Assembly: GCA_964431555.1 (NCBI GenBank)
Contig: CAYSJW010000023.1
Span: 33,368-97,367 of the forward strand
DNA: 64,000 nucleotides
Direction: 5' to 3'
Source: an uncultured Gammaproteobacteria bacterium
Lineage (GTDB): Bacteria > Patescibacteriota > Microgenomatia > UBA8517
Positions 994-16,152 of this stretch are shown piece after piece. Position 1 is the first letter of the stretch. Each line of letters begins with the position of its first letter. Position numbers and translations under genes: made by a program. The notes beneath the pieces are model-generated. The model made no database searches. It saw only the letters and a list, made by a program, of their open reading frames with translations, and had not been told where the DNA came from.

Positions 994-1051
994 AATAAAC
1001 ACTTGATATCATAATATCTGCTAAAATACAAGATATAATTTAGCTAATTTT

Positions 1052-1498
1052 ATGGAAATTTGGCAGAAAATATTAATCTTAACATGGGGAATTCTATCAC
1101 TATTATTTTTCATTAAAGGATTTATTGAATCTAAAGAAAAGAAAAACTCTTTTAGCAAAACACCACTGCTTTCAGTTTTCGGAATCTTTGTTTGGGGTGA
1201 TGCGGTTATTTTCGGACTTTTTTGGATTTTTTCATCAATAACAATAATCTTATTAAATGACTGGCTTTTATTTCCTTTAATACTCTCTGTCTTTTGGTTT
1301 GTGCGAAGTTTAGGTGAAACAATTTATTGGTTAAATCAGCAATTTTCTCCAATTAAAAGAAACCCTCCTGAAAATTTACTTGGATATAGATACTTTAAAA
1401 ATGATTCTATTTGGTTTATCTACCAAACTATCTGGCAATGCATAACCATAATTTCAATCATTTCTACCATCTACTTTGTCAAAATCTGGCTAAAGTGA
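1052..1498 (+). CDS. Hypothetical small integral membrane protein (about 4 predicted TM helices).
   Basis: Complete 148-aa ORF that is highly hydrophobic. No recognisable motif. Confidence 0.5.
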   Translation: MEIWQKILILTWGILSLLFFIKGFIESKEKKNSFSKTPLLSVFGIFVWGDAVIFGLFWIFSSITIILLNDWLLFPLILSVFWFVRSLGETIYWLNQQFSPIKRNPPENLLGYRYFKNDSIWFIYQTIWQCITIISIISTIYFVKIWLK

Positions 1499-1800
1499 AA
1501 AAGATAATTATCACTTAAAACCAACGATACACAGACATTTATTTTTAGCTTGCACAATCATTTATGCATAACTTCTGAGATAAAAAGGCAAGGATGAGGA
1601 AGAGATTTTGTTCTGACATTTGAATAAAACCTCTTTTGATAAAATTAAAAGATGGAAATTAAAAGTTAAAACCAAACCAGATGTTAAAAGCGCTACCTTC
1701 ATTTTGCTTAACATCTCCGAATCTGAATATTTTGCAAAATTTGTTAATCTATTCAATAACCGCTATTGCTACATTCAATTTACATCAACCAAATACCTAA

Positions 1801-1946
1801 CTCCTATATCTTATTCCTATTTCCTATTTCCTATTTCCTATTTCATACTTCCTATTTCTCATTTCTCACAACTCACCACCCACTACTCACAACCCGCAAC
1901 CCACTACCCACCACTCACTTCTCACAACTCATAACTCACTCTTTCT
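1801..1946. repeat. G-free pyrimidine/CA-rich tandem tract: about 5 copies of TCCTATTT followed by degenerate CACAAC/CCACTAC units. It contains one G in 146 nt. It is module S of the composite intergenic repeat family.
   Basis: Direct reading. Related tracts occur at 9723-9775 and 11328-11390. Confidence 0.8.
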
Positions 1947-1955
1947 GAAAAAACC

Positions 1956-1993
1956 CATTGTTGGAGACTACTCAACACCCAGTGTTGAGAATT
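1956..1993. repeat. Module P of the repeat family: cccattgttgga...ctcaacac-cca-gtgttgag-aatt (8-bp stems, 3-nt loop).
   Basis: The same hairpin occurs at 3338-3356, 5472-5490, 9791-9809, 11190-11208 and 11404-11422. Stems are conserved and the loop varies (cca/ctg/atg/ccg). Confidence 0.8.
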
Positions 1994-2018
1994 GTTGAAA
2001 ATTTTATTTAATTACCAT

Positions 2019-2714
2019 CTAAAAAATTTTACTAATTACAAGAGTATTTTTTTCTGCTGAAAATGAAGGCATAACCATAAAACCCGTAAGCATTTGTTCA
2101 GGAATTCCCATATTTAATAAATCCGCTTTGTATTTTTCAATCTGTGACTCTTTTCTACCTTTTCCTATCTCTAGTATCAAATACCTCCCATCCGGCCCAA
2201 TTCCGACAACATCTAATATGTCATTATTTGATAAACTTACTTCAAAAAATACTGCTGGTTTTGGTTGTGTATTTTCAACTTCAAGAGGATAAAATATCCC
2301 CCTCAACACTTCCCAATTAGCCACTAAAAACTTTATAACCTTCTGGTAGGGTTTTTCCTGTTGTGAATGAGCTTGTTCTTTCAATCTTTGATTAACAGTC
2401 AAGTTTTTTTCAATTCTCACTCTTTGCCAATCTTCTAAATCTGACGGGGGAGAATAATTCAAATTTTTCTCAATAAGAATCCGCCATTCTCCTTCTGCAG
2501 CTGTACCAAATTGATAGTCTATTCCAATTCTTTCATCTCTTCCTTTTGGCCTTCCATTTTCATCAAGACCACTTGTTATTTTATAACCTCGCAATTTTTC
2601 CACTATCTCCTTAATTTCGCGTTCATGCTGAACTTTCCATTCTTCAACTTCACTAGAAGCTTTTCCTATCATCCACAACTTTAAAAACTTTGGTACCTCG
2701 TTTGTTTCATCCAT
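2019..2714 (-). CDS. Hypothetical protein. The C-terminus has a weak PD-(D/E)xK-like D...ExxK arrangement (ILDVVGIGPDGRYLILEIGKG).
   Basis: Complete 231-aa ORF flanked by repeat copies. No firm family assignment. Confidence 0.45.
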   Translation of the reverse strand: MDETNEVPKFLKLWMIGKASSEVEEWKVQHEREIKEIVEKLRGYKITSGLDENGRPKGRDERIGIDYQFGTAAEGEWRILIEKNLNYSPPSDLEDWQRVRIEKNLTVNQRLKEQAHSQQEKPYQKVIKFLVANWEVLRGIFYPLEVENTQPKPAVFFEVSLSNNDILDVVGIGPDGRYLILEIGKGRKESQIEKYKADLLNMGIPEQMLTGFMVMPSFSAEKNTLVISKIF

Positions 2715-2859
2715 AACTGTTTAGAAAATCAACTATGGTTAATTTTCCAAAACCCTACTATAATTTGCTCTCATTTAAATATCAAATCGTTCCTTAATTT
2801 TTTAGATATCTTAGTATAAAATTAAAAAACCTAATATTGTAAGAAGATGCGCCATTATC

Positions 2860-3192
2860 ATGCCAACTTTAAAAGAAGGATTTTCAAATTCAATAGAATT
2901 TTTTAGAACTGTATCAAGTCTCAGCACTCACCTTCCTCTTCCTTTCGGAGGAGAAAGTCTCGCCGAAACAGACAAAAGTGGAAAACCTATTCCGCCTGAA
3001 AATAGAAAATATATGACCATCGTAGAAGAGACCCTTTTTTACCTTATTTCCATCGGAGTCTCCCCAGCTCTTTTTCCCATAATTTTCAATAACCCGGAAA
3101 AAGCTTCAGGCTTTGTTAGGCAATTTACAGGAATTGACGGGGAAAAAGTTTATTTTGAAAAATTAAGGTCCAGAATTAAAAAATCTAAGTAA
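2860..3192 (+). CDS. Hypothetical protein.
   Basis: 110-aa ORF with no recognisable motif. Confidence 0.35.
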   Translation: MPTLKEGFSNSIEFFRTVSSLSTHLPLPFGGESLAETDKSGKPIPPENRKYMTIVEETLFYLISIGVSPALFPIIFNNPEKASGFVRQFTGIDGEKVYFEKLRSRIKKSK

Positions 3193-3330
3193 TCTTATTT
3201 TAGCCCATTAAAATTCTGAAAGTTTAAGCAAGGCCTTTTTCACCAGTTAAAAAGAAGAATTCATAGGGGGTGAAAATCACCCCCCTTATTGGTTAAATAA
3301 TTTTAAAATTTGAAAAATATCCCAATGTTT

Positions 3331-3477
3331 GAACCTACTCAACACCTGGTGTTGAGAATTCACTAAATTTAATTCTTAATTCTCAAATAAACAAACCAGT
3401 AGCGAAACAACTTTGCAACAATAATTTACGAAAAAAAAGGGAGGGGTGTAATATCAGTTCACCCGACAGGTGTGATA
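3331..3477. repeat. Composite intergenic repeat copy. It comprises hairpin module P, the 78-bp AT-rich core module Q (cactaaatttaattcttaattctcaaataaacaaaccagtagcgaaacaactttgcaacaataatttacgaaaaaa) and module R (gaggggtgtaatatcagttcacccgacaggtgtgata).
   Basis: About 97% identical to 11186-11327 over about 145 bp. Confidence 0.85.
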
Positions 3478-3601
3478 GTGTGATATTAGATATTATTAAA
3501 TGTTTTGTAATCTTTTGGTTAGCTTATACATTTGGAGTGTTAATAAAAACTCAAGAAAAACTCAAGATATTTCGATATTTTTATTTTAAAATTGAAGTTA
3601 C

Positions 3602-3811
3602 ATGAGATCCAAAAAATTTAAAATTAAAATTTTAGATATACCAGAGGTTTATACTTTAAATGATAAAGTTAGTAAACTTTCAAGTGTTTCCATATTTGAG
3701 GGGTATAACCATGAATGTGACTGTGCTTGTCCGAATGAACATAGTGGAAATATTATAACTGAACCTTATACTAAAATAAAAATATCAACAGTAAATCTTC
3801 ATAAAAAATAA
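3602..3811 (+). CDS. Candidate RiPP precursor peptide (69 aa). It has a K-rich leader and a core carrying HECDCACPNEH followed by a Cys-free Thr/Ile/Lys-rich tail.
   Basis: Small ORF 72 nt upstream of, and co-directional with, a radical-SAM enzyme. Three Cys within 5 residues. Confidence 0.5.
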   Translation: MRSKKFKIKILDIPEVYTLNDKVSKLSSVSIFEGYNHECDCACPNEHSGNIITEPYTKIKISTVNLHKK

Positions 3812-3883
3812 ATTTAAATAATTCAAGTGAAAAAAATAGTCCTAACCGAAATCTACGATTACTATTTTGGATTTTTCTAAAAC

Positions 3884-5449
3884 ATGATTAAGAAAAAAGG
3901 GTTTAATAAAAAAAATCATAATAAATCCTCACAATATTTTTTGTATCCTAATATTTTTACTATCAGACAACTAGATGGTTATTCAAATATAAATGGGGAT
4001 CTACATCCCATTTGGGGAAAACGTTTTGCAATTTATCACCCAATAAAATCCAACATCACATGTTTAAAAAATTCAGCCTGGGAAGTTTTTGATCTACTTA
4101 AAAAAAATTATCATAAAATTCAAGACATGCTGAACGCTAATAATGAACTGACTACCCATAAAATTAAAGAAATTATAAATAATTTTAAATCCAGAATGAT
4201 TGTTTTAGAAAATCAAAAAGGATTAAAAGTAAAAATTATACCCGATTTTAGTACCAATGCCGGGGTTTATTTACAAATTACAGAATATTGTAATTTTCAT
4301 TGTCCAGGTTGTTCTGCAGGATTGGATAGATATCAACCTGATAGATTACCGGAAACCATGAATGAAAATAACCTAGAAGAGCTTTTTCAAAATATTATAG
4401 AATCTGCATCAAATTTAGGATTTAAAAAACTCATTATAAAATGGGCTGGTGGCGAGCCGTTACTACCAACTCCATTTAAGTTAATTCGAAAAGGTCAGCC
4501 AATAATTAAAAGGTTACAAAAGCAATACTCTAAAATTAAAATCTACCAATCAATTTTGACAAATGGATCATTCCTGAAACCCGAATTAATTTCTGAGATA
4601 AAAAACTGGAATGTTCATCTTGCAGTAAGCTTATGGGGGATAGGAGAAGATAATTATAAAGCTAGAGGAGTTAAAAAGGTAAGTGGGTATGACATAATTG
4701 AGGGTATAAGATTACTACACAACGCTGGAATAAAATATAACATTAATCACGTAGTTACTCCAGTAAATTCTGAAAAATTTGGTAATTTTATTCGTGCTAT
4801 TTGGGATATACAAAGCAATGATTTTATAGGAAAAGACTGGATTTGGAAAAATGGAAAAAAACCTATTCCTCTAAATTTAACTTTTTTCAGACCACAAACT
4901 GAAAGTCAAATAAAAAGTCTTAGAAACAATGGTTATCAAAAAATGTTAAACGGTATAAGGAAAGGGTTTGAAGTAATACTAGAACTTATTAAAAAAGGGG
5001 TTCAAATACCTTCTTTAAGAAGAATAGATTACTTACAACTCTTCTCAGTTATTCCTGCGCCATGCGGAAGCGGTTTTAATTATTTGGTTGTAGGACCAAA
5101 AGGAATAACCTCTTGCATCCAAGGTCTTTTAAACACAAATAATTTTGACAGTATTAAAGCAAAAAAAGTAAATTTATTTAAAACTGTCAATAAAGAATAT
5201 AAAAAAACTAGTAAATTATTTGGACCCAATATCTCTTACTTAAGTAAAAACGACACAATCAATCAAATCTTGATGTTACACGGAGGATCCGGTTGTCCTC
5301 GAGTAGCAAGTTTAGAAAATAATGGTAATTTTGGATACGCGGCTGAAATATCAAAAATTTACGAAAAAATCATTGAAGAAATACTATCACTGGAAACAAT
5401 GAGACTTTTACATCTGAAAAAACATCATCCTTCTCACCTAAAGATGTAG
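3884..5449 (+). CDS. Radical SAM enzyme with a C-terminal auxiliary Cys cluster (SPASM/twitch-like). Probable peptide-modifying maturase. The about 130-aa N-terminal extension is a possible precursor-recognition domain.
   Basis: CNFHCPGC (CxxxCxxC) follows ...LQITEY. GGEP motif (WAGGEPLL). C-terminal Cys residues lie in PAPCGSG...ITSC...GGSGCP. Confidence 0.75.
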   Translation: MIKKKGFNKKNHNKSSQYFLYPNIFTIRQLDGYSNINGDLHPIWGKRFAIYHPIKSNITCLKNSAWEVFDLLKKNYHKIQDMLNANNELTTHKIKEIINNFKSRMIVLENQKGLKVKIIPDFSTNAGVYLQITEYCNFHCPGCSAGLDRYQPDRLPETMNENNLEELFQNIIESASNLGFKKLIIKWAGGEPLLPTPFKLIRKGQPIIKRLQKQYSKIKIYQSILTNGSFLKPELISEIKNWNVHLAVSLWGIGEDNYKARGVKKVSGYDIIEGIRLLHNAGIKYNINHVVTPVNSEKFGNFIRAIWDIQSNDFIGKDWIWKNGKKPIPLNLTFFRPQTESQIKSLRNNGYQKMLNGIRKGFEVILELIKKGVQIPSLRRIDYLQLFSVIPAPCGSGFNYLVVGPKGITSCIQGLLNTNNFDSIKAKKVNLFKTVNKEYKKTSKLFGPNISYLSKNDTINQILMLHGGSGCPRVASLENNGNFGYAAEISKIYEKIIEEILSLETMRLLHLKKHHPSHLKM

Positions 5450-5462
5450 TCACACAGAAAAA

Positions 5463-5500
5463 TCAAACCTACTCAACACATGGTGTTGAAATTTTTGAGA
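5463..5500. repeat. Solo module P hairpin (ctcaacac-atg-gtgttgaa) followed by a T-rich run. It sits between the convergent rSAM gene and the 5517-6146 gene and could act as a bidirectional terminator.
   Basis: Hairpin plus atttttgagaattttttg directly after the rSAM stop codon. Confidence 0.55.
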
Positions 5501-5516
5501 ATTTTTTGAGAGGAAA

Positions 5517-6146
5517 TTAGTATTTAAATTTAAAACTTCTCGCAACATTTTCAAAAATTTCTTTATTCTCCTCCCATTTACTAGTTGGCGTATTCCCGGA
5601 AATAACGAAGTATTTATCTGCCTTAGCAACAACAACTATAAAAATAGTGAAATTAACTTCTTGCTGAGTCAAAGTTAACTCAACAATCTTTGCTTTTTGA
5701 TCATCAATTACATCGTCTTGGCTGTTAATAACCTTGGTGCTTGCAATAGTTTGTTTTAACTGCAGATTTAAATCATCAACAATTTTGTCTAAGCTTTTCC
5801 CTTGAGTTTTATCAAATGAAACCGAAATATAACTTTTAAAGTTTATTTTCTGAGCAGCAGGATCATTAGCATGAGTCTCACCAACGTTTGTTATTGTTAA
5901 AAGGCTTCCAGGAAGTTGATTAGCTGTTGACCAACCTTCAGGCACCATTATCGAAAAATCTTCTGATTCGTGAATTTGCTCAGGTAATTTTTGAACTCTC
6001 TGCTGCTCTGGAGTTGGTAAAGTATTTAAGCTTTGAACACTCCTTTTAGTCAAAGAAAAATAGCCAAGAACTAAAACCCCAATCACTATTACAACGCCAA
6101 GAAGTATAAAAGAAAGTGCAAAACCTGAATTATTTTTTCGTATCAT
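5517..6146 (-). CDS. Hypothetical N-terminally membrane-anchored protein.
   Basis: 209 aa. N-terminal TM (GFALSFILLGVVIVIGVLVLGYF), remainder hydrophilic. Confidence 0.5.
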   Translation of the reverse strand: MIRKNNSGFALSFILLGVVIVIGVLVLGYFSLTKRSVQSLNTLPTPEQQRVQKLPEQIHESEDFSIMVPEGWSTANQLPGSLLTITNVGETHANDPAAQKINFKSYISVSFDKTQGKSLDKIVDDLNLQLKQTIASTKVINSQDDVIDDQKAKIVELTLTQQEVNFTIFIVVVAKADKYFVISGNTPTSKWEENKEIFENVARSFKFKY

Positions 6147-6151
6147 AATTT

Positions 6152-7816
6152 TCAGGGATATATTATTTCACCTTTTAGACAATTCGGTTTGAACGCACAA
6201 ATTTCATAAGTTGCCACATAATTGGAAAGAGATTGGGGGAGATCCCACTGAAAACCCCTATCTTGATCAACGAAATGCAAACTTTTCTCTGTCAGCTCAA
6301 CCTCTGAACCATTGCTCACAACCTTCATTTCAGCCGGTAAAGAAAGCTTTCTATTTGTATTGATCGTTATTTTGGAAGAAGTCGCTGATATTTTCAAAAT
6401 TTTAAAATCGGGTAATTTTGATTCATGGCCTGTCACAAATTCTGTCTTGGTTTGAACAGGAAGAGATGATTTTCCGCCATCCAAGACTTTCCCCGTATAA
6501 GTCCAAATTTGACATTCCATATCCTTCTCTTCTGCTGGGTGGCAAACCTGCTGAGCCCCGAATAATCTCCTTGTCTTATTGTCAAAACGCAAGTTTATGG
6601 CATCGAAATCTGTTAATTTATCCGGGCTGGGAATTAGCTGTTTCTTAAGTTTAGCCTTCACAGGATCATAAATTACAAAAAACCTATCTCTTTCCTCTCC
6701 CTGAGCAAATTCTTTATAAGGCTCTGTATAAATTCCATAAATATACCCATTTCGTGAATCAACGCCAAAAATGGACATGCCATCCCTATCTTGTAAAATT
6801 TTCCAACTCCCTCCATCAAGATCAGCCATCCCTAGCGTTTTTCTCTCTCTGATATTAGCAACTCCACCTCTATAAATAGGTGGCTCTCTAAAAGTTGAAT
6901 AGCGCACATAGAGCCTGTTCCTCGGAATATCCAAGGTTATGAAAGGCCAAGTATTTTCATAGTCAGTTAAAGTAAGTCTAACCTCTTTGTAATCACTACC
7001 GTCTCCTTTGACTTTAGCCAACCATATATCTTTATCATTATTAAATCCCGGAGTTCTTGCTCTTGGAAAAACAATATAGACTGTATCATTCTGGGAATCA
7101 TATTCCATATGTGGTATATAACTATTTACTTTTTCCCTTGTGTGAACAGTTTCTTTAATATTTCCACTTGCTAAATCAAGAAAGGCTGTGGCAATTTGAA
7201 AATCTTTGGTATAAGCAAAGATTAATTTTTGTCTTTGGATATCCAAAGCAACCGGCATAGTATCATCCACCGTCTCACTAGCAAAAATCTGTTTGTGAGT
7301 ACTCCAGTACTTCTCATCAGGTTCTTTACTTGCCATCATAACCCCGGAGATCACCTTGGTAGAGGCGTTAATGTCACTACCAATCCTATAAAAGTAATAG
7401 ATTGTGTCGTTTTCAGGATTGTATAAGATTCCGGGCCTTTGTTTATCTTCAGAAGAGGTGGTTTGTTTAACTTCTTCCCAACCATCGCCGTTAAAATCTG
7501 TCGTGGCTGTCCAAATTTGCCAGACGCCATTTTCGTCCATCTCTTTGTAAATGTAATAAATTTTCTCTCTAACTGTATCTAAAGCTATAGCAGGCTCATA
7601 CTTGGTATAAGGAGACGTTGTTTGTTGTTTCTGCAAAAACTCAGCCAAAGTATATTTGTAAGATTTGTCCGAAGAAGAAAGCTTTGTGATAAAAAGGTAA
7701 ACAATAAACCCAACTACTATAAATGAAGTAATCAAACTCAAAATGATTATCCGATTAAACCCACTCCCTGCAAATCTCCTGGGAAATTTCATAATCATTT
7801 TTATGATAACATCCAA
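6152..7816 (-). CDS. Hypothetical membrane-anchored or secreted protein with repetitive Y/W/G-rich beta-propeller-like segments.
   Basis: 554 aa. N-terminal TM, recurring DG(W/R)...YY(F/I)Y-type blocks. No catalytic motif. Confidence 0.5.
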   Translation of the reverse strand: MDVIIKMIMKFPRRFAGSGFNRIIILSLITSFIVVGFIVYLFITKLSSSDKSYKYTLAEFLQKQQTTSPYTKYEPAIALDTVREKIYYIYKEMDENGVWQIWTATTDFNGDGWEEVKQTTSSEDKQRPGILYNPENDTIYYFYRIGSDINASTKVISGVMMASKEPDEKYWSTHKQIFASETVDDTMPVALDIQRQKLIFAYTKDFQIATAFLDLASGNIKETVHTREKVNSYIPHMEYDSQNDTVYIVFPRARTPGFNNDKDIWLAKVKGDGSDYKEVRLTLTDYENTWPFITLDIPRNRLYVRYSTFREPPIYRGGVANIRERKTLGMADLDGGSWKILQDRDGMSIFGVDSRNGYIYGIYTEPYKEFAQGEERDRFFVIYDPVKAKLKKQLIPSPDKLTDFDAINLRFDNKTRRLFGAQQVCHPAEEKDMECQIWTYTGKVLDGGKSSLPVQTKTEFVTGHESKLPDFKILKISATSSKITINTNRKLSLPAEMKVVSNGSEVELTEKSLHFVDQDRGFQWDLPQSLSNYVATYEICAFKPNCLKGEIIYP

Positions 7817-7834
7817 AAAGAAAAATGGCTCAAG

Positions 7835-9025
7835 TTATTTTGGATAAATTCTATAAACCCAAAATGAACCCAGTAATCCCATCAAAGCCCACAGCGCAAT
7901 TGGAATCTGAACAAGATAGGAAAAAGCTAAAAGATTGGTATAGTGAATTTGATTAAAGAGAGAAGCTGCACCGTCAATAATTGATTTATAAACCAAGGCA
8001 ATTAAAAAATATTTAAAACTACCAGTTCTCACACTCATGAAGACCAAAAGTCCTGTAAACACTCCAATCAATAGGGCAGATATTCTTTCGATGATCGGCG
8101 GAAAAATTAATAATGATGATCCGCCAAAACCTTGTATAAAATCTGTCTGAAGATCTAACGGAAGGGCAGAAATTAAGTCCGGTTTTAAGGTTAAAGCTAA
8201 GGCAATCACAAATATCCAAAGACCAATAACTAAAGCTTCAACACCATTAAAGGTAATTGCGAAAGCGACGGCATTCTTTAGACTTGCATCTTTAAATTTT
8301 TCTCTAATATAAAGCCAAGAAAGACCGTTTTCCAAAATGCCCGTCCTTAAGCCAAAATATAAAAATGAAACAACTACTCCATAGGGGAGAACCATCTGGG
8401 TTACTCTAAGATCCATCACAAACTTAACGGTAAACATAAGAATCCAAACCAATATTGCAGCCCAAACATATTTCATTTCAAAACCAGCCTTTTTCCTCCA
8501 ATAAAAAAGGGCTATAAAAAAGACAGAAACTGTTAAAATCCCTCCAATAATCATAGCCGGGTTTGGTTTGAAATCTTCTAAATCCTCAAATTCCGGGTTT
8601 TTCTCACTTTGATATATTCCCAAAACCTCATCCGCTTTTAAGTTTAATGTCTCGCTTTTTCTTTGCTCTGGAGAAACTTTGTAATGAACCCCCTCGGGAG
8701 TTTCCAATTTCTCACGAATAACCGCCATCCTTCTTGCTCCCTGACTTTGGAAAAGAACAATTGTTCCTTCGCTTAGGTTATTTCTATCTTTGTCTATACA
8801 CTGATTAAAAAGTGCTCTTTCCCCATCTTCAATAAGCGGCTCCATTGATTTTCCTTTCACTGCAACTGGAACTATACACCTTAATTCTTTAAAAGCTGAA
8901 AAATCGGCACTTGCTTGTATAAAGGAAGAATGAGGTAAACTTACTAAAAATAAAAAAATTGAAAGGAAAATGGAATAAAAAAAGCCTCTCATTAATCTTA
9001 TAATAAGTCTGTATAATCTTATCAT
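7835..9025 (-). CDS. Signal peptidase I (S26/S24 fold)-like domain fused to a C-terminal about 8-TM membrane domain.
   Basis: N-terminal TM, then VKGKSMEPLIEDGE (box B, Ser nucleophile), EGTIVLF (box C-like) and RRMAVIREK. The C-terminal about 230 aa are polytopic. Confidence 0.55.
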   Translation of the reverse strand: MIRLYRLIIRLMRGFFYSIFLSIFLFLVSLPHSSFIQASADFSAFKELRCIVPVAVKGKSMEPLIEDGERALFNQCIDKDRNNLSEGTIVLFQSQGARRMAVIREKLETPEGVHYKVSPEQRKSETLNLKADEVLGIYQSEKNPEFEDLEDFKPNPAMIIGGILTVSVFFIALFYWRKKAGFEMKYVWAAILVWILMFTVKFVMDLRVTQMVLPYGVVVSFLYFGLRTGILENGLSWLYIREKFKDASLKNAVAFAITFNGVEALVIGLWIFVIALALTLKPDLISALPLDLQTDFIQGFGGSSLLIFPPIIERISALLIGVFTGLLVFMSVRTGSFKYFLIALVYKSIIDGAASLFNQIHYTNLLAFSYLVQIPIALWALMGLLGSFWVYRIYPK

Positions 9026-9096
9026 TCAATACCCTCACGTTTAAGAGAAGCAAGTAAATCAATATTTTTTACCAGACTAGAGTTTAAAATCAAAAG

Positions 9097-9312
9097 TTAT
9101 TTTAGAAGATGGTATTGATCAAGAATTTTTTCTGCCCAGAATAAACAATCTTTTTTAGTTTTTATCTTGGGGTACATTTTTTTAGATAAGTACTTATTAG
9201 CTTTTTCCAAAAATTTCAAACCAGTCTCTTTTGATCCACGGGCTAAATAGAAAGCCGCTCGATAAAGATTAGCTATAGTATCTGATCGGTAACTTTTTTT
9301 ATCTAATGCCAT
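9097..9312 (-). CDS. Hypothetical small protein (71 aa).
   Basis: Overlaps the upstream ORF by 10 nt, suggesting an operon. Basic and helical. Confidence 0.4.
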   Translation of the reverse strand: MALDKKSYRSDTIANLYRAAFYLARGSKETGLKFLEKANKYLSKKMYPKIKTKKDCLFWAEKILDQYHLLK

Positions 9313-9641
9313 AACTTTCGAAAATAATTTTTAACAATTTCTATGAACTTTTCTCTTCTTTTTTGATCCAAGATTTCTAAACTATCGTTTCCTAATCTTG
9401 GTCTAAGATTTAAAACAGCAGTAGTATCAATAAGTTTCTTCTTTAAATCAATTCCACCACCCCAAATATCGTCTTGCCTACTTCCTTTTTTCAAAAGCAG
9501 TTTTTCTGCATCGGCATGAAGACCGCTTCCAACAAATATCCACTTATTTTCCAAATCAATTGTTAATTTAAAATAATTTCCAAATTGTTTTCGCAACCTT
9601 TCTATTTCCTGCGGCGTTAAAACCTTATCAATAAACTCCAT
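9303..9641 (-). CDS. Hypothetical protein (112 aa).
   Basis: Complete ORF with no recognised motif. Confidence 0.45.
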   Translation of the reverse strand: MEFIDKVLTPQEIERLRKQFGNYFKLTIDLENKWIFVGSGLHADAEKLLLKKGSRQDDIWGGGIDLKKKLIDTTAVLNLRPRLGNDSLEILDQKRREKFIEIVKNYFRKLWH

Positions 9642-9676
9642 CCCTTATATTTTATCATCAAGTTGTAAAAAATAGG

Positions 9677-9809
9677 TGGGAGGTGTTATAACAGTTCACC
9701 CGACGCGTGTGATATGACACTTACTTCTCACAAATCACAACTTATTACTAACCACCAATTCTTAACAAGATAACCCATTGTTGGAATTTACTCAAAACCC
9801 GGTGTTGGG
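9677..9809. repeat. Diverged composite repeat copy. Order is R-like module (gggaggtgttataacagttcacccgacgcgtgtgata), then a G-poor CA tract, then a P hairpin (ctcaaaac-ccg-gtgttggg).
   Basis: Direct comparison with the other copies. Confidence 0.75.
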
Positions 9810-9889
9810 AATTATATTGGGGTATATAACATAAACTTATTTTACTCTCATTCCTAAATTTAATATCCTCTTACCTAAATATAGCAGAA

Positions 9890-10954
9890 TTGATAAGATA
9901 TAACCTAATGAGTACGGGGGGAGAACCAATAGTTGAACAACCTCCACCTTCAACTCCAGAAAGAAATACTCAAGAAGTTTTCGACCCTGTAAATGAGTGG
10001 AAAAGAATAGAAGATACTGTCGCACTTGAGATAACCGAAGGGAGAACGAGTGGCAACTTTGATGATAAGATTAAACTCCGAAATAGACTGATAAGTGAAT
10101 TGGCCAAAAAATTTGTACCTACAGTGGTAGAAAATGAAAGGGAATTGTTCGAAAGGCTAAGTGCGGTTGATAGAGCTAATTGGGGTCTTGAGGAAATCCA
10201 ACGGTTAAATAGCCAATTGCATCCAGAGTTTTATATTCATGAACTAATTGACTTGAGGACGCTAGCGGAACTTATTGGCGTAGGAAATTACTATCACTCT
10301 AAAATGTCCTATTGGAAAAAAGAGGGTCTAATCAACAAGACATGGGTAGCAATAGATACGGTAGATGCAGTGTGCGTAACTTCCGGTCTGCTGGCACTTG
10401 CAAAGAAAGAGGGAATTCAGCTTGGTAAAAAAGTGGTAGATTTGGGCGGTGGAGATGGTACTTGGGGCTTTGTATTGTGGAAACTAGGTTTCAATGTAAC
10501 CTTAATAGAACGAGACCCAACTCTTATTCAACAACTCCAGTTTGAAAAAGGGAAATTGGAGAAGATACTTGAAGTAAAAATATGGCCCTTACAAACTATA
10601 AATGGCGAGTTTTCCACCGACGATGCTAAAAATACTCCTCAAATACGAATGGCTTTGCGTAAAGCGGATGTAATGGTAAGTTATCCCTGGCCTAATGAAG
10701 TGCTAGACAGAATGAAATTGTTTAGTCAGTATGGGAAAAACAACGCGCTTCTCGTAATGTATGGGGGCAGTCCGAATGGATTTTCAACCAATACTGGGGA
10801 CATAACCAACTGTGGATTGGAAGTTGTCGGAAGTGAAATAAATGAAAAATTAAAAAGCAGTGGTGGTGAGCTACAATGGGTACGTGGCTACCCAGCCCCA
10901 CAGTCTGGAGTAAGTTGGGTTGTGTTGAGAAAAGCCACTACTAGTGATAGATAA
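9890..10954 (+). CDS. Class I SAM-dependent methyltransferase-like protein with an N-terminal extra domain.
   Basis: Motif I VVDLGGGDGTWGFVL, then an acidic residue at the end of the beta2-equivalent (LIERD). No DPPY/NPPY DNA-MTase motif. Confidence 0.55.
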   Translation: MIRYNLMSTGGEPIVEQPPPSTPERNTQEVFDPVNEWKRIEDTVALEITEGRTSGNFDDKIKLRNRLISELAKKFVPTVVENERELFERLSAVDRANWGLEEIQRLNSQLHPEFYIHELIDLRTLAELIGVGNYYHSKMSYWKKEGLINKTWVAIDTVDAVCVTSGLLALAKKEGIQLGKKVVDLGGGDGTWGFVLWKLGFNVTLIERDPTLIQQLQFEKGKLEKILEVKIWPLQTINGEFSTDDAKNTPQIRMALRKADVMVSYPWPNEVLDRMKLFSQYGKNNALLVMYGGSPNGFSTNTGDITNCGLEVVGSEINEKLKSSGGELQWVRGYPAPQSGVSWVVLRKATTSDR

Positions 10955-11185
10955 TCACCCACACCCTACCCGGATTTTCTACCCCCAATCTACATAGAAA
11001 CAAAAAAATCCACGGGATAAATTTATTAATTCCTACTCAATGATTTGAACTAGTATACCTTAAAATTACATTTGTCTTTACCAAAACCAAAACTCTATAT
11101 GTTTATAAAAGGAGACACTCAAGTTTGAATTATTTTAATATTTTTTCTATAAAGAAAGGTTATCTAGATAATATAATAAATATAA

Positions 11186-11428
11186 CCTACTCAACACCTG
11201 GTGTTGAGAATTCACTAAATTTAATTCTTAATTCTCAAATAAACAAACCAGTAGCGAAACAACTTTGCAACAATAATTTACGAAAAAAGTGAGGGGTGTC
11301 ATATCAGTTCACCCGACGGGTGTGATATTTCTCTCACAACCCACTACCCAACACTCACTTCCCACAACTCACTCTTTCTGAAAAAACCTATTGTTCAAAC
11401 CTACTCAACACCCGGTGTTGAGAATTGT
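11186..11428. repeat. Longest composite repeat copy, in the order P hairpin, Q core, R hairpin, S G-free CA tract, second P hairpin.
   Basis: Q+R are near-identical to 3361-3477. S+P match 1921-1993. Confidence 0.85.
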
Positions 11429-11594
11429 TTCCATATTCTCAAACCGCAATTTACCATTAAACATAAAGATAATAACAAGAATAGAAAAAATTAAAAATAA
11501 TTAACAATTTAATCCACATCTTCGGTGGTGTCGTCCAAATTCTAACTTTCGCACACTAACTTTTTTACATCTAATCTAAAAAGAAAATTTACTA

Positions 11595-11644
11595 TTGACA
11601 TTGATTGTTGGTTTGATAATATAGACCTATACCTAGGGTATAGG
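11595..11644 (+). promoter_or_regulatory. Sigma-70-type promoter (TTGACA 11595-11600, 16-nt spacer, TAATAT 11617-11622) overlapped at its downstream end by an 8-3-8 inverted repeat (cctatacc-tag-ggtatagg, 11626-11644). The inverted repeat is a candidate CsoR operator.
   Basis: Hexamers and palindrome read directly. The palindrome has the ATACC...GGTAT character of known CsoR boxes and lies 34 nt upstream of csoR. Confidence 0.55.
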
Positions 11645-11677
11645 TATCAAAAAATAAAATTTCTGATTTTTAAAATC

Positions 11678-11950
11678 ATGACAACTCAAAAAGAAAAAAC
11701 TCTCATTAATTTCAAAAAAGCCCAAAGCCTATTGTCCAAAATTATTAAAATGCTGGAAGCCGATGAATATTGCATTGATATTATGCAGCAAAATTTGGCA
11801 GTGATAGGACTCTTAAAATCTGCCCACCAGATGCTCATGGAAAATCACCTCAATACCTGCTTTAAAACGGCAATGGCAACAAAAAAAGAAAAGAAGAAAC
11901 AAGAGATGGTTCAAGAAATATTAAAAGTTACAAAACTATTTAATAAATAA
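11678..11950 (+). CDS. csoR: CsoR/RcnR-family metal-sensing transcriptional repressor.
   Basis: 90 aa. Cys in ADEYCID, His in SAHQML, Cys in LNTCF, matching the x-Cys...His...Cys metal-ligand spacing of the CsoR family. Confidence 0.75.
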   Translation: MTTQKEKTLINFKKAQSLLSKIIKMLEADEYCIDIMQQNLAVIGLLKSAHQMLMENHLNTCFKTAMATKKEKKKQEMVQEILKVTKLFNK

Positions 11951-11959
11951 CCAAATTAC

Positions 11960-13486
11960 ATGTCTAAAAAAACTAAAGAATATACCCTTTACGTCAAAGG
12001 AATGCATTGTGCATCCTGTGAGATCTTGATTGAGAAAAGGTTACTAGAACTAAAAAACATAAAATTCGTCAAACCTTCAACAGCTAAAGGTGAAGTATTG
12101 ATTAAATACAACAACAAAAAACCTAGTCTTCACAAACTAAATGAAATTTTTAAAAAAGAAGGATATATCTTTTCCGAAGATCAAAAAGATGCAATAAGCA
12201 GCTTTAAGCCGAAAGAATTTTTTACTAATCTTGGCATAGGATTATTAATTATTATCGGTTTCATCGGATTAAATAGCTTAGGATTATCAGGATTGATAAA
12301 TGTGGGTTCAAAATCGTCTTTGCCAATGTTTTTTTTGTTCGGACTTCTTGCTGGGATTTCTAGCTGCGCAGCTTTAGTCGGCGGATTAATCCTTTCAATG
12401 TCAAAACATTGGAGTGAACTATATTCAGATTCCGAACCCCTATGGAAAAAAATTCAGCCTAATTTAATTTTTAACACAGGTAGATTTATTTCCTATGGAG
12501 TTTTTGGTGCAATATTAGGAGCAATAGGTAGCAAAATAAACTTTTCACTTAAATTTGGACCAATCTTGGTTGTTGTCATTTCTGTAATAATGATCTTTCT
12601 AGCTTTTCAAATGTTTGGACTTAAGATATTTAGAAAATTTCAATTTACAATGCCAAAATTTATAACAAAATTTATTACCAATGAGTCCAATTTCAAGGGC
12701 CGCTATATGCCATTTTTTATGGGTGCATTTACCTTCTTTTTGCCTTGCGGCTTTACGATAACCACTCAAAGTTTAGCCTTAATTTCCGGAAGTGCAATTC
12801 AGGGAGGACTAATTATGTTTTCATTCGCTTTGGGAACTTTACCAATGCTTTTACTTATAGGATTATCTAGCACCAATTTCCTACAAAAGCCGCATTTATC
12901 TGAAAGATTTTTTAAAATAGCCGGTATTTTGGTTCTATTTTTCGCTCTCTACAATATTAATTCTCAATTAAATGTCTTGGGGATCTCAAGCCTTAGCGAC
13001 TTAAGTTTCAATTCAACTAAATTTTACGATATTAATAAAAATGTTTCATCTAAAAACGAATACGGGCTGGCTCCAATTGTTAATGGCAAACAAATCCTGA
13101 AAATGAACGCTTTCTCTTATGGTTATTCGCCGGATTATTTTAAAGTAAGAACCGGAGTACCAGTAAGATGGGAAATTACAGATAAAGGAACCAGCGGTTG
13201 TACTAATGCTGTCATTTCAAAAAGTTTATTTGAAGGTGAAATTCCCTTGACCCCAGGTCAAACTAGTATAAAAGAATTTACTCCCGAAAAACCAGGTAAA
13301 TACAAATTTAGTTGTTGGATGGGAATGATTTCCGGGATTATAGAAGTTGTGGATAAGGATAATCTAACATCTCAAAGTAACATTTCAAATGATAACGGTG
13401 ATCTATTTGTCCCATCAAAGGTGGAGAATTCAAACGGAAGTTGTAGTTGTGGTACAAATGTGAAGTGCGGTTGTGGCGGAAGATAA
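11960..13486 (+). CDS. Copper-handling fusion protein: an N-terminal HMA domain, a polytopic DsbD/CcdA-like membrane core with two intramembrane Cys, and a C-terminal cupredoxin-like domain with a Cys-rich tail.
   Basis: GMHCASCE (MxCxxC). TM Cys in GISSCAAL and FLPCGFT. C-terminal ...GKYKFSCWMGMISGIIEV and ...SNGSCSCGTNVKCGCGGR. Confidence 0.6.
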   Translation: MSKKTKEYTLYVKGMHCASCEILIEKRLLELKNIKFVKPSTAKGEVLIKYNNKKPSLHKLNEIFKKEGYIFSEDQKDAISSFKPKEFFTNLGIGLLIIIGFIGLNSLGLSGLINVGSKSSLPMFFLFGLLAGISSCAALVGGLILSMSKHWSELYSDSEPLWKKIQPNLIFNTGRFISYGVFGAILGAIGSKINFSLKFGPILVVVISVIMIFLAFQMFGLKIFRKFQFTMPKFITKFITNESNFKGRYMPFFMGAFTFFLPCGFTITTQSLALISGSAIQGGLIMFSFALGTLPMLLLIGLSSTNFLQKPHLSERFFKIAGILVLFFALYNINSQLNVLGISSLSDLSFNSTKFYDINKNVSSKNEYGLAPIVNGKQILKMNAFSYGYSPDYFKVRTGVPVRWEITDKGTSGCTNAVISKSLFEGEIPLTPGQTSIKEFTPEKPGKYKFSCWMGMISGIIEVVDKDNLTSQSNISNDNGDLFVPSKVENSNGSCSCGTNVKCGCGGR

Positions 13487-13515: not shown

Positions 13516-13659
13516 ATGAAAGAATTATACCAATGTTCAATTTGTAAGCTATGGTATAAAGAAAAAAAGTGGGCTAAAAAATGTAAAGCATGGTGCAAAA
13601 AGCATAAAAGTTGTAATTTGGAAATAACAAGACATGCAAAATCTAATAAAAACCCATGA
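13516..13659 (+). CDS. Small Cys-rich, Lys/Trp-rich protein (47 aa) with a CxxC-x12-CxxxC-x5-C pattern. Putative metal-binding (TRASH/zinc-ribbon-like).
   Basis: [34 protein letters not shown]... Its stop overlaps the copA start (ATGA). Confidence 0.45.
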
Positions 13660-16081: not shown

Positions 16082-16152
16082 TCGGGGTGGGCAGAGTCGA
16101 ACTGCCGCCGGACGCACCCCATGCGCCCATTCTACCGTTAAACTACACCCCG
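16082..16152 (-). tRNA. tRNA-Pro (anticodon GGG).
   Basis: Hand-folded. Acceptor CGGGGTG/CACCCCG (7 bp). Anticodon stem GGCGC/GCGTC with loop AUGGGGU, giving anticodon GGG with G37. T arm GGCAG-UUCGACU-CUGCC. Discriminator A. CCA not encoded. Confidence 0.75.

What the first reader, a model, noticed from the sequence alone, without database searches (positions are those of the whole stretch)
3602..5449. Compact RiPP-like pair: a Cys-cluster precursor peptide plus a radical-SAM/auxiliary-cluster maturase in a CPR-type genome
- Radical-SAM enzyme: the 521-aa protein carries the canonical CxxxCxxC (CNFHCPGC) and GGEP motifs. It has a C-terminal Cys cluster (PAPCGSG...ITSC...GGSGCP) typical of SPASM/twitch peptide maturases. 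An about 130-aa N-terminal extension could be a precursor-recognition element.
- Precursor candidate: 72 nt upstream and co-directional is a 69-aa ORF. It has a Lys-rich leader, and its core contains HECDCACPNEH followed by a Cys-free, Thr/Ile/Lys-rich tail.
- Topology: donor Cys residues followed by acceptor residues is what sactipeptide and ranthipeptide precursors look like.
- Context: the pair is bracketed by repeat copies, and a hairpin plus T-run follows the enzyme's stop codon. It therefore looks like a self-contained, possibly horizontally acquired two-gene module.

RiPP clusters are rarely described in genome-reduced Patescibacteria.
Basis: partly seen in the sequence, partly recalled or inferred. 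Interest (0 to 1): 0.75.

Follow-up and report, generated by a model that had tools for sequence, protein, structure and literature searches.

The report
Cys-motif peptide plus radical-SAM maturase
A small gene for a peptide carrying a D-C-A-C-P motif sits next to a radical-SAM enzyme with a peptide-binding domain, and because this pairing recurs in about twenty other ultra-small (CPR) bacteria it is very likely an undescribed family of enzyme-modified peptides whose chemistry is still unknown.

Summary
Window 3602-3811 encodes a 69-aa peptide and 3884-5449 a 521-aa radical-SAM enzyme.

- **Enzyme family:** it is small, about 45-60 clusters at 50% identity among 1.84 billion representatives. 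Named members are almost all Patescibacteria.
- **Partner peptide:** in 22 of 22 loci with enough flanking DNA, a small same-strand ORF lies next to the enzyme gene. It carries 1-4 copies of [D/N/H]-C-A-C-[P].
- **Whole enzyme:** the closest solved structure is the thioether synthase CteB.
- **C-terminal region:** only three Cys are invariant, and only the first half of a SPASM motif is present. This points to a Twitch-like domain with a single auxiliary cluster, not a SPASM domain.
- **Known families:** no curated family (NCBIfam, Pfam) claims the enzyme above its cut-off or the peptide at all. I found no paper describing it.

Most likely this is a new radical-SAM RiPP family that makes a local Cys thioether within the motif. 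That chemistry is inferred, not shown.

The flanking repeats are real, but they also flank neighbouring genes. The module lies in a variable stretch of a Woesebacteria-like chromosome.

The parts
3332..3477 (+). Upstream intergenic repeat block. It holds the hairpin module CTACTCAACACCTGGTGTTGAGAATT, a linker, and the module GGGAGGGGTGT..CACCCGACAGGTGTGATA. It is not part of the coding module and is recorded as the left 'bracket'.
   Evidence: Positions 3332-3447 are 96% identical to 11184-11299 (family D3). Positions 3433-3477 match 11283-11327 (93%) and 9670-9714 (80%) (family D5).
3602..3811 (+). Precursor peptide gene (69 aa). It has a Lys/Ile-rich N-terminal strand-like leader (KFKIKILDI), a spacer, one core motif, and a Cys-free basic tail (TKIKISTVNLHKK).
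   Evidence: The ORF is listed. It was called as a gene in two independent assemblies. Homologous-position peptides with the same motif occur in 22 of 22 related loci. No Pfam or NCBIfam family matches it.
3716..3733 (+). Core motif C39-D40-C41-A42-C43-P44. This is the three-Cys form of the family motif [D/N/H]-C-A-C-[P].
   Evidence: Across 33 motif instances in 25 peptides: position -1 is D 28, N 3, H 2; C 33/33; A 31/33; C 33/33; P 25/33. An extra Cys sits at -2 in 10 instances.
3884..5449 (+). Radical-SAM peptide maturase, 521 aa, with three domains: RRE, radical-SAM core, and a Twitch-like C-terminal domain.
   Evidence: Pfam PF04055. 26 homologues at 33-50% identity. AF2 model with pLDDT 90 and pTM 0.90. 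Best PDB matches are CteB and TigE.
3884..4249 (+). RiPP recognition element (residues ~1-122): beta-strands 18-60 followed by three helices 63-103.
4289..4312 (+). CxxxCxxC motif (C136, C140, C143) that binds the SAM-cleaving [4Fe-4S] cluster.
   Evidence: Read directly from the sequence. Nearly invariant across the 27-member alignment.
4997..5446 (+). Twitch-like C-terminal domain (residues ~372-521). It carries the only three invariant C-terminal Cys: C394 (nt 5063-5065), C411 (nt 5114-5116) and C471 (nt 5294-5296). A beta-hairpin lies between C394 and C411.
   Evidence: Invariant columns. Hairpin strands E400-404 and E407-409. The stretch 'CGSGxxYLxxGPxGxxSC(H)' aligns to CteB 344-391, the first half of its SPASM motif (E 6e-4 to 6e-3). 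No CX2CX5CX3C block is present. No Pfam SPASM hit.
5460..5494 (+). Hairpin repeat copy that doubles as a terminator-like site after the enzyme's stop codon.
   Evidence: Stem-loop 5473-5489 followed by AATTTTTGAG. It belongs to a 5-copy repeat family.

Best explanation
This is a minimal two-gene RiPP cassette of an undescribed, essentially CPR-restricted family.

Proposed mechanism, step by step:
1. The 69-aa product is the precursor peptide.
2. The N-terminal RRE of the 521-aa enzyme captures the peptide. The likely handle is the Lys/Ile-rich N-terminal strand, and possibly the strand-like C-terminal tail.
3. The radical-SAM cluster (C136/C140/C143) cleaves SAM to give a 5'-deoxyadenosyl radical.
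4. That radical abstracts a hydrogen from a carbon inside or right next to the [D/N/H]-C-A-C-P motif.
5. A motif Cys thiolate closes a small intramolecular thioether ring. The thiolate is probably held on the free iron of a single auxiliary cluster ligated by only three protein Cys (C394, C411, C471).
6. One ring forms per motif copy. The most economical geometry is Asp(-1) C-beta to Cys(+2) S, i.e. a D-x-x-C ring analogous to the N-x-x-C beta-thioether made by NxxcB.

What is shown: the gene pair, its conservation, the motif, the RRE fold, the radical-SAM core, and the 3-Cys C-terminal signature.

What is inferred: that the peptide is the substrate, that an auxiliary cluster is bound, the thioether chemistry, the acceptor atom, and the fate and function of the product.
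For: **Pairing**
- A same-strand small ORF with the Cys motif lies next to the enzyme gene in 22 of 22 loci with enough flank.
- These loci come from Woesebacteria (the window), Gottesman-, Chisholm- and Shapirobacteria, Saccharibacteria and unnamed metagenomes.
- The background rate of the relaxed motif is about 2e-5 per residue.

**Motif behaviour**
- The motif occurs in 1-4 copies per peptide, and some loci carry 2-3 peptide paralogues (L014, L018, L027).
- Nearly all peptide Cys lie inside motifs. Nothing at a fixed distance outside the motif is conserved. Both points argue for a local, iterated reaction.
- Motif variants track enzyme divergence. HCACN goes with the 33%-identity enzyme P0027, and DCMKP with P0025.

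**Enzyme**
- RRE fold.
- The best solved relative by both fold and sequence is the thioether synthase CteB: Foldseek E 2e-15 and TM 0.71, HMM E 1e-18.
- The next tier of sequence relatives scores best against the PapB ranthipeptide, QhpD and SCIFF maturase models.
- Only three invariant C-terminal Cys are present. [quoted passage not shown]

**Precedent**
- NxxcB makes a beta-thioether to Asn in N-x-x-C and tolerates Asp as acceptor (PMC9389541).

**Accessory genes**
- GNAT acetyltransferases of the RimJ/L type are fused or adjacent in 4 of 19 loci. Such enzymes are a common RiPP tailoring step; that generalisation is my own knowledge.
Against: - No chemistry is observed; everything past 'enzyme plus conserved peptide' is inference.
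- Close structural neighbours also include a cyclopropyl synthase (TigE), a Cys-to-formylglycine dehydrogenase (anSME) and a cyclophane-type enzyme (ChlB). Fold alone therefore does not fix the reaction.
- The D(-1)-to-C(+2) model does not fit several variants. L013 (NDCMKP) and the first motifs of L005 and L024 (DDCAP) have a single Cys. L018 has His at -1.
- The C-terminal domain gets no Pfam SPASM hit, so binding of an auxiliary cluster is presumed from 3 Cys plus a hairpin.
- The window's enzyme has Ile where 90% or more of the family, and CteB, have His412.
- No protease or exporter is conserved beside the pair, so leader removal and export are unexplained.
Confidence: 0.55

Rival explanations
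1. It is a genuine RiPP precursor-maturase pair, but the reaction is not a thioether. Candidates are oxidation of a motif Cys (anSME-like formylglycine or thioaldehyde chemistry), epimerisation, a C-C crosslink, or another Cys-centred transformation that creates a redox-active or metal-binding D/H-C-x-C site.
For: - anSME is the second structural group (E 4e-11). Its substrate motif, C-x-P/A-x-R (my own knowledge), loosely resembles C-A-P-A-K in the L005 and L024 variants.
- TigE and ChlB, close in fold, perform non-thioether chemistry.
- The conserved D/N/H plus two Cys look like a metal- or redox-site signature.
- Single-Cys variants exist.
Against: - anSME has no RRE and has two fully ligated auxiliary clusters (PMC6231123). 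This family has an RRE and only three C-terminal Cys.
- The anSME NCBIfam models score 42-47 bits against cut-offs of 349-484.
- The best sequence and fold match is a thioether synthase.
Confidence: 0.3
2. The modified peptide is not an exported natural product. Instead it is an intracellular small protein or cofactor, for example a redox or metal-handling CxC peptide, or a peptide-derived cofactor in the manner of mycofactocin, PQQ or QhpC. The radical-SAM enzyme is its dedicated maturase.
For: - No leader peptidase or transporter is conserved next to the pair in 19 loci.
- Long-form peptides (84-107 aa, acidic, up to 3-4 motifs) look more like small proteins than bacteriocin precursors.
- The QhpD model, which makes Cys-Asp/Glu thioethers in a protein subunit, is among the hits for second-tier relatives.
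Against: - Short forms (28-45 aa) are strongly cationic, with Lys-rich ends typical of secreted peptides.
- GNAT genes and wHTH regulator genes lie next to the pair in many loci, which fits a regulated secondary-metabolite or signal cassette.
- No partner dehydrogenase or redox enzyme is conserved nearby.
Confidence: 0.1
3. The small ORF is not the substrate. It would be a chance or regulatory ORF, and the enzyme acts on something else; or the window's copy is an inactive relic.
For: - The window's enzyme deviates at the near-invariant His412.
- No Shine-Dalgarno-like sequence is obvious upstream of either gene.
- The pair sits in a poorly conserved, repeat-rich stretch.
Against: - Co-occurrence in 22 of 22 loci, with a motif whose background rate is about 2e-5 per residue.
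- The enzyme has an RRE, a domain whose known role is to bind precursor peptides.
- All catalytic motifs are intact and both ORFs are uninterrupted.
Confidence: 0.05

Closest known systems
CteB / SCIFF maturases and PapB-type ranthipeptide synthases (radical-SAM/SPASM thioether synthases with an N-terminal RRE)
   Same: - RRE, then radical-SAM core, then a C-terminal Fe-S domain.
- Best PDB match by fold (E 2e-15, TM 0.71) and by sequence (E 1e-18), including the 'CGSGxxYLAVxPxGxxxxCH' hairpin segment.
- Cys-containing precursor encoded immediately upstream.
- A short repeated motif in the precursor, as with PapB's CX3D repeats (my own knowledge).
- Fewer Cys than needed for full ligation of Aux I.
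   Different: - 16-17% identity only.
- The NCBIfam PapB, SCIFF and CcpM models score 30-45 bits against cut-offs of 340-500.
- There is no second half of the SPASM motif, so no Aux II.
- The precursor motif D-C-A-C-P matches no known precursor family.
- Distribution is restricted to CPR bacteria.
SkfB (Twitch-domain sactisynthase with an RRE)
   Same: The same three-part architecture, with a truncated single-cluster C-terminal domain and an apparently open coordination site (PMC6231123). It is a Foldseek hit at E 9.5e-9.
   Different: - A weaker match than CteB (TM 0.34-0.45).
- SkfB ligates its cluster through CX33CXC, whereas this family has C-x16-C-x59-C.
- The precursor is unrelated.
NxxcB / NxxC streptococcal RaS-RiPP
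   Same: - A short local motif with a polar beta-methylene residue three positions before a Cys: N-x-x-C there, [D/N]-C-A-C here.
- NxxcB makes a beta-thioether and tolerates Asp as acceptor (PMC9389541).
   Different: - No detectable specific sequence relationship was found or tested here.
- The middle Cys is invariant in this family and has no counterpart in NxxC.
- The phylum is different.
- The resemblance is a lead, not a test.
Anaerobic sulfatase-maturating enzyme (anSME)
   Same: A radical-SAM enzyme acting on a peptidyl Cys in a short C-x-P/A motif. It forms the second-best structural group.
   Different: - anSME has no RRE and has two fully ligated auxiliary clusters.
- Its NCBIfam models score far below cut-off here.
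- No sulfatase is encoded nearby, and a dedicated small peptide is present instead.

Membership tests
Radical SAM superfamily (PF04055) | A CxxxCxxC cluster motif, a GGE SAM-binding motif, and a Pfam score above the gathering threshold. | tested here: met
   C136-x3-C140-x2-C143 and GGEP at 189-192 are read from the sequence. PF04055 scores 56.9 bits against 29.5. All 27 family members hit the model.
SPASM-domain radical SAM (PF13186 / TIGR04085) | The seven-Cys motif CX9-15GX4C - gap - CX2CX5CX3C - gap - C, which binds two auxiliary clusters. | tested here: not met
   Only C394, C411 and C471 are invariant, and there is no CX2CX5CX3C block. No Pfam SPASM hit appears in 27 full-length members at E<=1, or in 20 C-terminal domains at E<=10. 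Only the first half aligns to CteB.
Twitch-domain radical SAM | A truncated SPASM-like domain with a beta-hairpin flanked by Cys ligands, binding one auxiliary cluster (definition from PMC6231123). | tested here: inconclusive
   The sequence and model fit: C394, hairpin E400-409, C411, then C471 after helices. Cluster binding cannot be tested in silico. The NCBIfam N_Twi_rSAM model was not among the 25 families shown for the window's protein.
RiPP recognition element (PqqD-like RRE) | A winged helix-turn-helix: three beta-strands followed by three helices, used to bind leader peptides. | tested here: met
Sactipeptide / ranthipeptide class | A Cys S to acceptor C-alpha (sacti) or C-beta/C-gamma (ranthi) thioether in the mature peptide. 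| not testable with these tools
   This needs MS/MS and NMR of the modified peptide.
Sactipeptide / ranthipeptide class | The maturase scores as a member of a curated thioether-synthase family (PapB, SCIFF/CteB, StsB, CcpM, QhpD). | tested here: not met
   Scores against cut-offs: PapB 40/340, StsB 44.5/625, CcpM 45.2/500, QhpD 30.3/453. The SCIFF model is not among the 25 families shown.
Sactipeptide / ranthipeptide class | A Cys-bearing precursor peptide encoded next to the maturase. | tested here: met
   Found in 22 of 22 loci.
Anaerobic sulfatase maturase | Membership of TIGR03942 / PRK13745, and a sulfatase substrate. | tested here: not met
   42.4 bits against 349 and 47.1 against 484. 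An RRE is present. No sulfatase lies in the surrounding 21 kb.
Known precursor-peptide families (SCIFF and the other curated NCBIfam/Pfam families) | The precursor matches a curated NCBIfam or Pfam precursor model. | tested here: not met
   No significant family was found for the window's peptide or for 10 homologous peptides at E<=1. The only hits were chance-level, at E 0.04-0.5.

The most novel reading that the evidence does not exclude
This would be the founding example of a CPR-restricted RiPP class in which a single-auxiliary-cluster (Twitch-type) radical-SAM enzyme installs a crosslink type not yet described on a D-C-A-C motif. One possibility is a four-residue Asp-Cys beta-thioether ring with a second, free or metal-binding Cys. 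The product would act as a signal or host-interaction factor, read out by the C-terminal winged-helix regulators that sit beside the cassette in about half of the loci.
Probability: 0.2. Interest if true: 0.75.

Novelty: new variant of a known kind. Interest (0 to 1): 0.55.

Why it matters
- **Little-known producers.** Patescibacteria/CPR have tiny genomes and are rarely credited with specialised peptide chemistry. Here a compact cassette recurs across several CPR lineages: Woese-, Gottesman-, Chisholm- and Shapirobacteria and Saccharibacteria.
- **Likely missed by standard mining.** The enzyme fails SPASM and PqqD sequence models, so rule-based genome mining that depends on them may overlook it.
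- **Easy to test.** The pair is only 1.85 kb and has a very short, sharply defined motif. That makes it a convenient system for asking two things: what a three-Cys, single-auxiliary-cluster RRE-radical-SAM enzyme does to a C-x-C site, and what modified peptides do for episymbiotic bacteria.
- **Limits.** It remains one more uncharacterised radical-SAM RiPP family among many, and its chemistry is unknown.

Tried and rejected
- **SPASM and PqqD sequence detection.** Pfam found neither in any member. An N-terminal profile against PDB sequences gave only E 0.056. Fold comparison was needed to settle the RRE question.
- **Phage origin.** No relative was found in the viral contig collection.
- **Empty-site comparison, to test for insertion.** The adjacent PsbP-like gene has only 3 homologues, at 35-53% identity. 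No syntenic relative could be found, so the horizontal-transfer question stays open.
- **Base composition.** The module is 29.0% GC against 35.7% for the window. This is suggestive but weak in an AT-rich genome.
- **RNA features.** Rfam at gathering threshold finds only one tRNA, at 16082-16152. The repeats match no known RNA family.
- **Literature.** Searches for CPR or Patescibacteria radical-SAM RiPPs and for the string DCACP returned nothing relevant.
- **TusA/YedF link.** The CPxP resemblance in some motifs gave only a chance-level hit (E 0.29) and was rejected as evidence.
- **Accessory genes in the window.** I looked for a GNAT gene or a Trans_reg_C regulator like those in other loci. 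tblastn found none.
- **Two apparent exceptions.** L013 and L026 at first seemed to lack a peptide. Both have variant peptides: ENDCMKPSD immediately upstream in L013, and PDCDCMKPSD just downstream in L026.
- **Not attempted.** A peptide-family database search was skipped because a 6-residue motif cannot reach significance in 5.8 billion sequences.
Full report
**Observation**

The two ORFs are exactly as described. A 69-aa ORF lies at 3602-3811 and a 521-aa ORF at 3884-5449, on the same strand and 72 nt apart.

The enzyme carries these motifs:
- CNFHCPGC (C136/C140/C143).
- KWAGGEP.
- Three C-terminal Cys, in PAPC394GSG, ITSC411 and GGSGC471P.

Pfam Radical_SAM scores 56.9 bits against a threshold of 29.5. 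The peptide has a Lys-rich start (MRSKKFKIKILD), a core HE-CDCACP-NEH at nt 3716-3733, and a Cys-free tail.

A 7-bp hairpin followed by AATTTTT comes after the enzyme's stop codon, at 5473-5489. Hairpin-repeat copies do flank the pair, at 3335 and 5469. The same 26-nt element also occurs at 1968, 11187 and 11401, with a degenerate copy near 9790. That makes five clear copies where none is expected by chance, all on the + strand and all within the first 12 kb. The bracket is therefore real but not specific to this pair.

**Is the peptide real? Evidence from relatives**

A word-indexed search of 5.8 billion proteins found only 26 homologues, at 33-50% identity, almost all about 460-560 aa long. 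An exhaustive profile search of 1.84 billion cluster representatives gave 97 hits at E<=1e-30. Scores drop from above 200 bits (about 45-60 representatives, the family proper) to about 150 bits, where generic radical-SAM peptide maturases begin.

Every one of the 22 distinct loci with enough flanking sequence has a small ORF on the same strand next to the enzyme gene. It is nearly always immediately upstream; in L026 it is downstream. Each carries a shared Cys motif.

Examples of the motif:

| Locus | Motif copies |
|---|---|
| Window | HECDCACPNE |
| L001 | QDCACPNP, DECDCACPAA, NDCACPPA |
| L004 | TDCACPQP, SDCACPDP, NNCACPEV |
| L010 | four tandem copies of a 24-aa unit containing YNDCACSQAD (one copy degenerate) |
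| L012 | NECDCACPDP |
| L014 | two peptides |
| L018 | three 28-30-aa peptides with [D/H]CACN |

Position counts over 33 motif instances in 25 peptides:

| Position | Residues |
|---|---|
| -1 | D 28, N 3, H 2 |
| 0 | C 33 |
| +1 | A 31 |
| +2 | C 33 |
| +3 | P 25 |

Almost all Cys in these peptides lie within motifs. The relaxed pattern occurs only 3 times in 127,996 six-frame residues of the window, this peptide included, so the association cannot be chance.

Variants exist. L013 has ENDCMKPSD (a single Cys), L026 has PDCDCMKPSD, and the first repeat in L005 and L024 is DDCAP. The most divergent motifs go with the most divergent enzymes, which is what co-evolving substrate and enzyme would look like.

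Two further features recur:
- An N-terminal strand-like segment: K-x-K-[IL] in the short forms and MSA[VI]ETL in the long forms.
- A strand-like C-terminal tail: IKISTVNL, IRISVVVPQA or TIEVTVTVPAV.

None of the peptides matches any Pfam or NCBIfam family.

**What the enzyme is**

An AlphaFold2 model built on the 27-sequence alignment is confident (pLDDT 90, pTM 0.90). It shows three parts:
1. An N-terminal module of beta-strands plus three helices (residues 18-109).
2. A partial TIM barrel (residues 125-335).
3. A C-terminal region in which a beta-hairpin (400-409) lies between C394 and C411.

For the whole protein, the closest solved structure is CteB, the SCIFF thioether synthase.
- By Foldseek: E 2e-15, TM 0.71 on the target.
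- By profile: E 1e-18, covering the end of the RRE, the core, and separately the segment 'CGSGxxYLAVxPxGxxxxCH'.

Next come TigE (a cyclopropyl synthase), anSME, ChlB and SkfB. Every NCBIfam model scores far below its cut-off. The best is 54.8 bits against 180, and the peptide-maturase models reach 30-51 bits against cut-offs of 300-650. The enzyme therefore belongs to no curated family. Its second-tier relatives score best on the PapB ranthipeptide, QhpD, DynA and SCIFF models.

**The C-terminal domain**

Across the family only C394, C411 and C471 are invariant after the core. H466 is nearly invariant, and so is H412, although the window's protein has Ile at 412. The CX2CX5CX3C block that builds the second auxiliary cluster of SPASM domains is absent. 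Pfam SPASM hits no member. A profile of the C-terminal domain finds only the first half of CteB's SPASM motif (E 6e-4).

By the published definition, a Twitch domain is a truncated SPASM that binds one cluster (PMC6231123). This region is therefore Twitch-like with three protein ligands. [quoted passage not shown] A three-Cys site here fits that picture. Cluster binding itself is inferred.

**Most likely mechanism**

I commit to the following at about 0.55 confidence for the full chain.
1. The RRE docks the precursor.
2. The radical-SAM cluster generates a 5'-deoxyadenosyl radical.
3. The radical abstracts a hydrogen within or beside the motif.
4. A motif Cys, held on the free iron of the single auxiliary cluster, closes a small thioether ring. 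One ring forms per motif copy.

The reaction is probably local, for three reasons. The motif is the only conserved element at fixed spacing. It is reiterated 1-4 times. And the spacers between copies vary freely.

The simplest geometry joins Asp(-1) C-beta to Cys(+2) S, a [D/N]-x-x-C ring. NxxcB makes exactly such a beta-thioether on N-x-x-C and tolerates Asp as acceptor (PMC9389541). The weaknesses are the single-Cys variants, the His at -1 in L018, and the unexplained invariance of the first Cys.

Rival readings:
- Other Cys-centred chemistry, such as oxidation, or creation of a redox or metal site (0.3).
- An intracellular cofactor-like role rather than an exported product (0.1). This is prompted by the absence of any conserved protease or exporter.
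- No functional link between peptide and enzyme, or a dead copy (0.05).

**Context**

SecY in the window is 79-81% identical to named Candidatus Woesebacteria proteins and 83-86% identical to many unnamed relatives. The radical-SAM enzyme has no homologue above 50% identity. The pair is therefore an accessory trait, not shared with close relatives.

It lies in a stretch of about 10 kb made of poorly conserved ORFs and modular intergenic repeats. On one side are recA, recX, RNase Y, HU and an ABC transporter. On the other are csoR, a DsbD/HMA/cupredoxin protein and copA. The ribosomal-protein, EF-Tu/EF-G and rpoBC region begins about 20 kb further on (read by gene sizes, plus SecY).

GC content is 29.0% in the module against 35.7% for the window.

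Named genomes with family members are Gottesman-, Chisholm- and Shapirobacteria and Saccharibacteria, plus two MAGs labelled Proteobacteria. One of those is named '...PATE-15'; the other is a 2.7-kb contig. None was found in viral contigs.

Other loci add accessory genes that the window lacks (tblastn):
- A RimJ/L-type GNAT, fused in P0005 and adjacent in L017, L018 and L027.
- Proteins of about 350-414 aa with a C-terminal OmpR-type winged helix, in 9 of 19 loci.

L019 sits among resolvase, TrwB/DUF87 and Replic_Relax genes, and L003 sits next to an integrase. Some copies are therefore on mobile DNA.

**Comparison with what is known, and verdict**

It works like an RRE-dependent radical-SAM thioether synthase (CteB, PapB, SkfB, NxxcB). 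It is not a member of any of their curated families, and it fails the SPASM definition. I found no description of the motif or of a CPR radical-SAM RiPP in the searchable literature.

I rate it a new variant of a known kind and give it an interest of 0.55. It is a clean, compact, testable and apparently undescribed family in an under-explored phylum. It is also one of many uncharacterised radical-SAM peptide systems, and its chemistry and function are still inferred.

Noticed in passing
window 1847-1996, 3326-3477, 5460-5494, 9670-9816, 11178-11429: A modular family of intergenic repeats, confined to the first 12 kb and all on the + strand. Module A is GGGAGGGGTGT..CACCCGACAGGTGTGATA. Module B is a C/A-rich CACTCAC-type tract. 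Module C is the hairpin CTACTCAACACCNGGTGTTGAGAATT. Module D is a linker. The order is C-D-A-B-C at 11184-11426 and A-B-C at 9670-9816. At 3332-3477 it is C-D-A, followed by the peptide and enzyme genes, then C at 5460. The two-gene module thus sits where module B lies in the paralogous array. No Rfam match. Function unknown: terminator, promoter or MITE-like.
   Followed up: partly
window ~1000-11650: About 10 kb of poorly conserved ORFs lies between housekeeping genes (recA and others) and a copper-homeostasis set (csoR at 11678, HMA-DsbD-cupredoxin at 11960, P-type ATPase at 13656). The PsbP-like neighbour at 5517-6146 has only 3 homologues in 5.8 billion proteins. This looks like a variable island.
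   Followed up: partly
window 7835-9025 (-): A 396-aa protein fuses an S24 (LexA/signal-peptidase-like) peptidase domain to a YhfC-type intramembrane metalloprotease domain, 2.4 kb from the cassette. It could in principle process peptides. No equivalent is conserved in the other loci.
   Followed up: no
L012, L014, L018, L023, L026, L029, L001, L005 (flanking the cassette): Proteins of about 350-414 aa, of at least two types, have an uncharacterised N-terminal domain and a C-terminal OmpR/PhoB-type winged helix (Trans_reg_C). They sit beside the peptide-enzyme pair in 9 of 19 loci, often divergently transcribed and sometimes two per locus. They are candidate dedicated regulators or sensors. 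The window has none.
   Followed up: partly
L019 (P0005), L017, L018, L027: A RimJ/L-type GNAT acetyltransferase is fused to the C-terminus of the radical-SAM enzyme in P0005 (719 aa). It is encoded next to the pair in three other loci, which suggests an optional N-acetylation tailoring step.
   Followed up: partly
L003 2209-2451 versus L004 832-1152: The same enzyme (P0006) occurs in two assemblies whose DNA is identical except for an 88-nt deletion in the NCBI MAG. The deletion removes the peptide's C-terminal tail (...VVVPQA) and shifts the frame. This is either a population variant or an assembly artefact.
   Followed up: partly
L010 3671-3982: This precursor has four near-perfect tandem copies of a 24-aa unit (YNDCACSQADAKVISAQSNDQNQ). 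One copy has the second Cys replaced by Tyr. It is an extreme case of core-motif reiteration.
   Followed up: no
L019 786-5243; L003 213-1154: Some family members lie on mobile-looking DNA. In L019 a resolvase, a DUF87/TrwB-type ATPase and a Replic_Relax protein lie directly upstream. In L003 a tyrosine integrase lies upstream.
   Followed up: no
window 3884-5449, residue 412: The window's enzyme has Ile at a position where at least 90% of the family, and CteB, have His directly after the second auxiliary-cluster Cys (C-H). The consequence is unknown.
   Followed up: no
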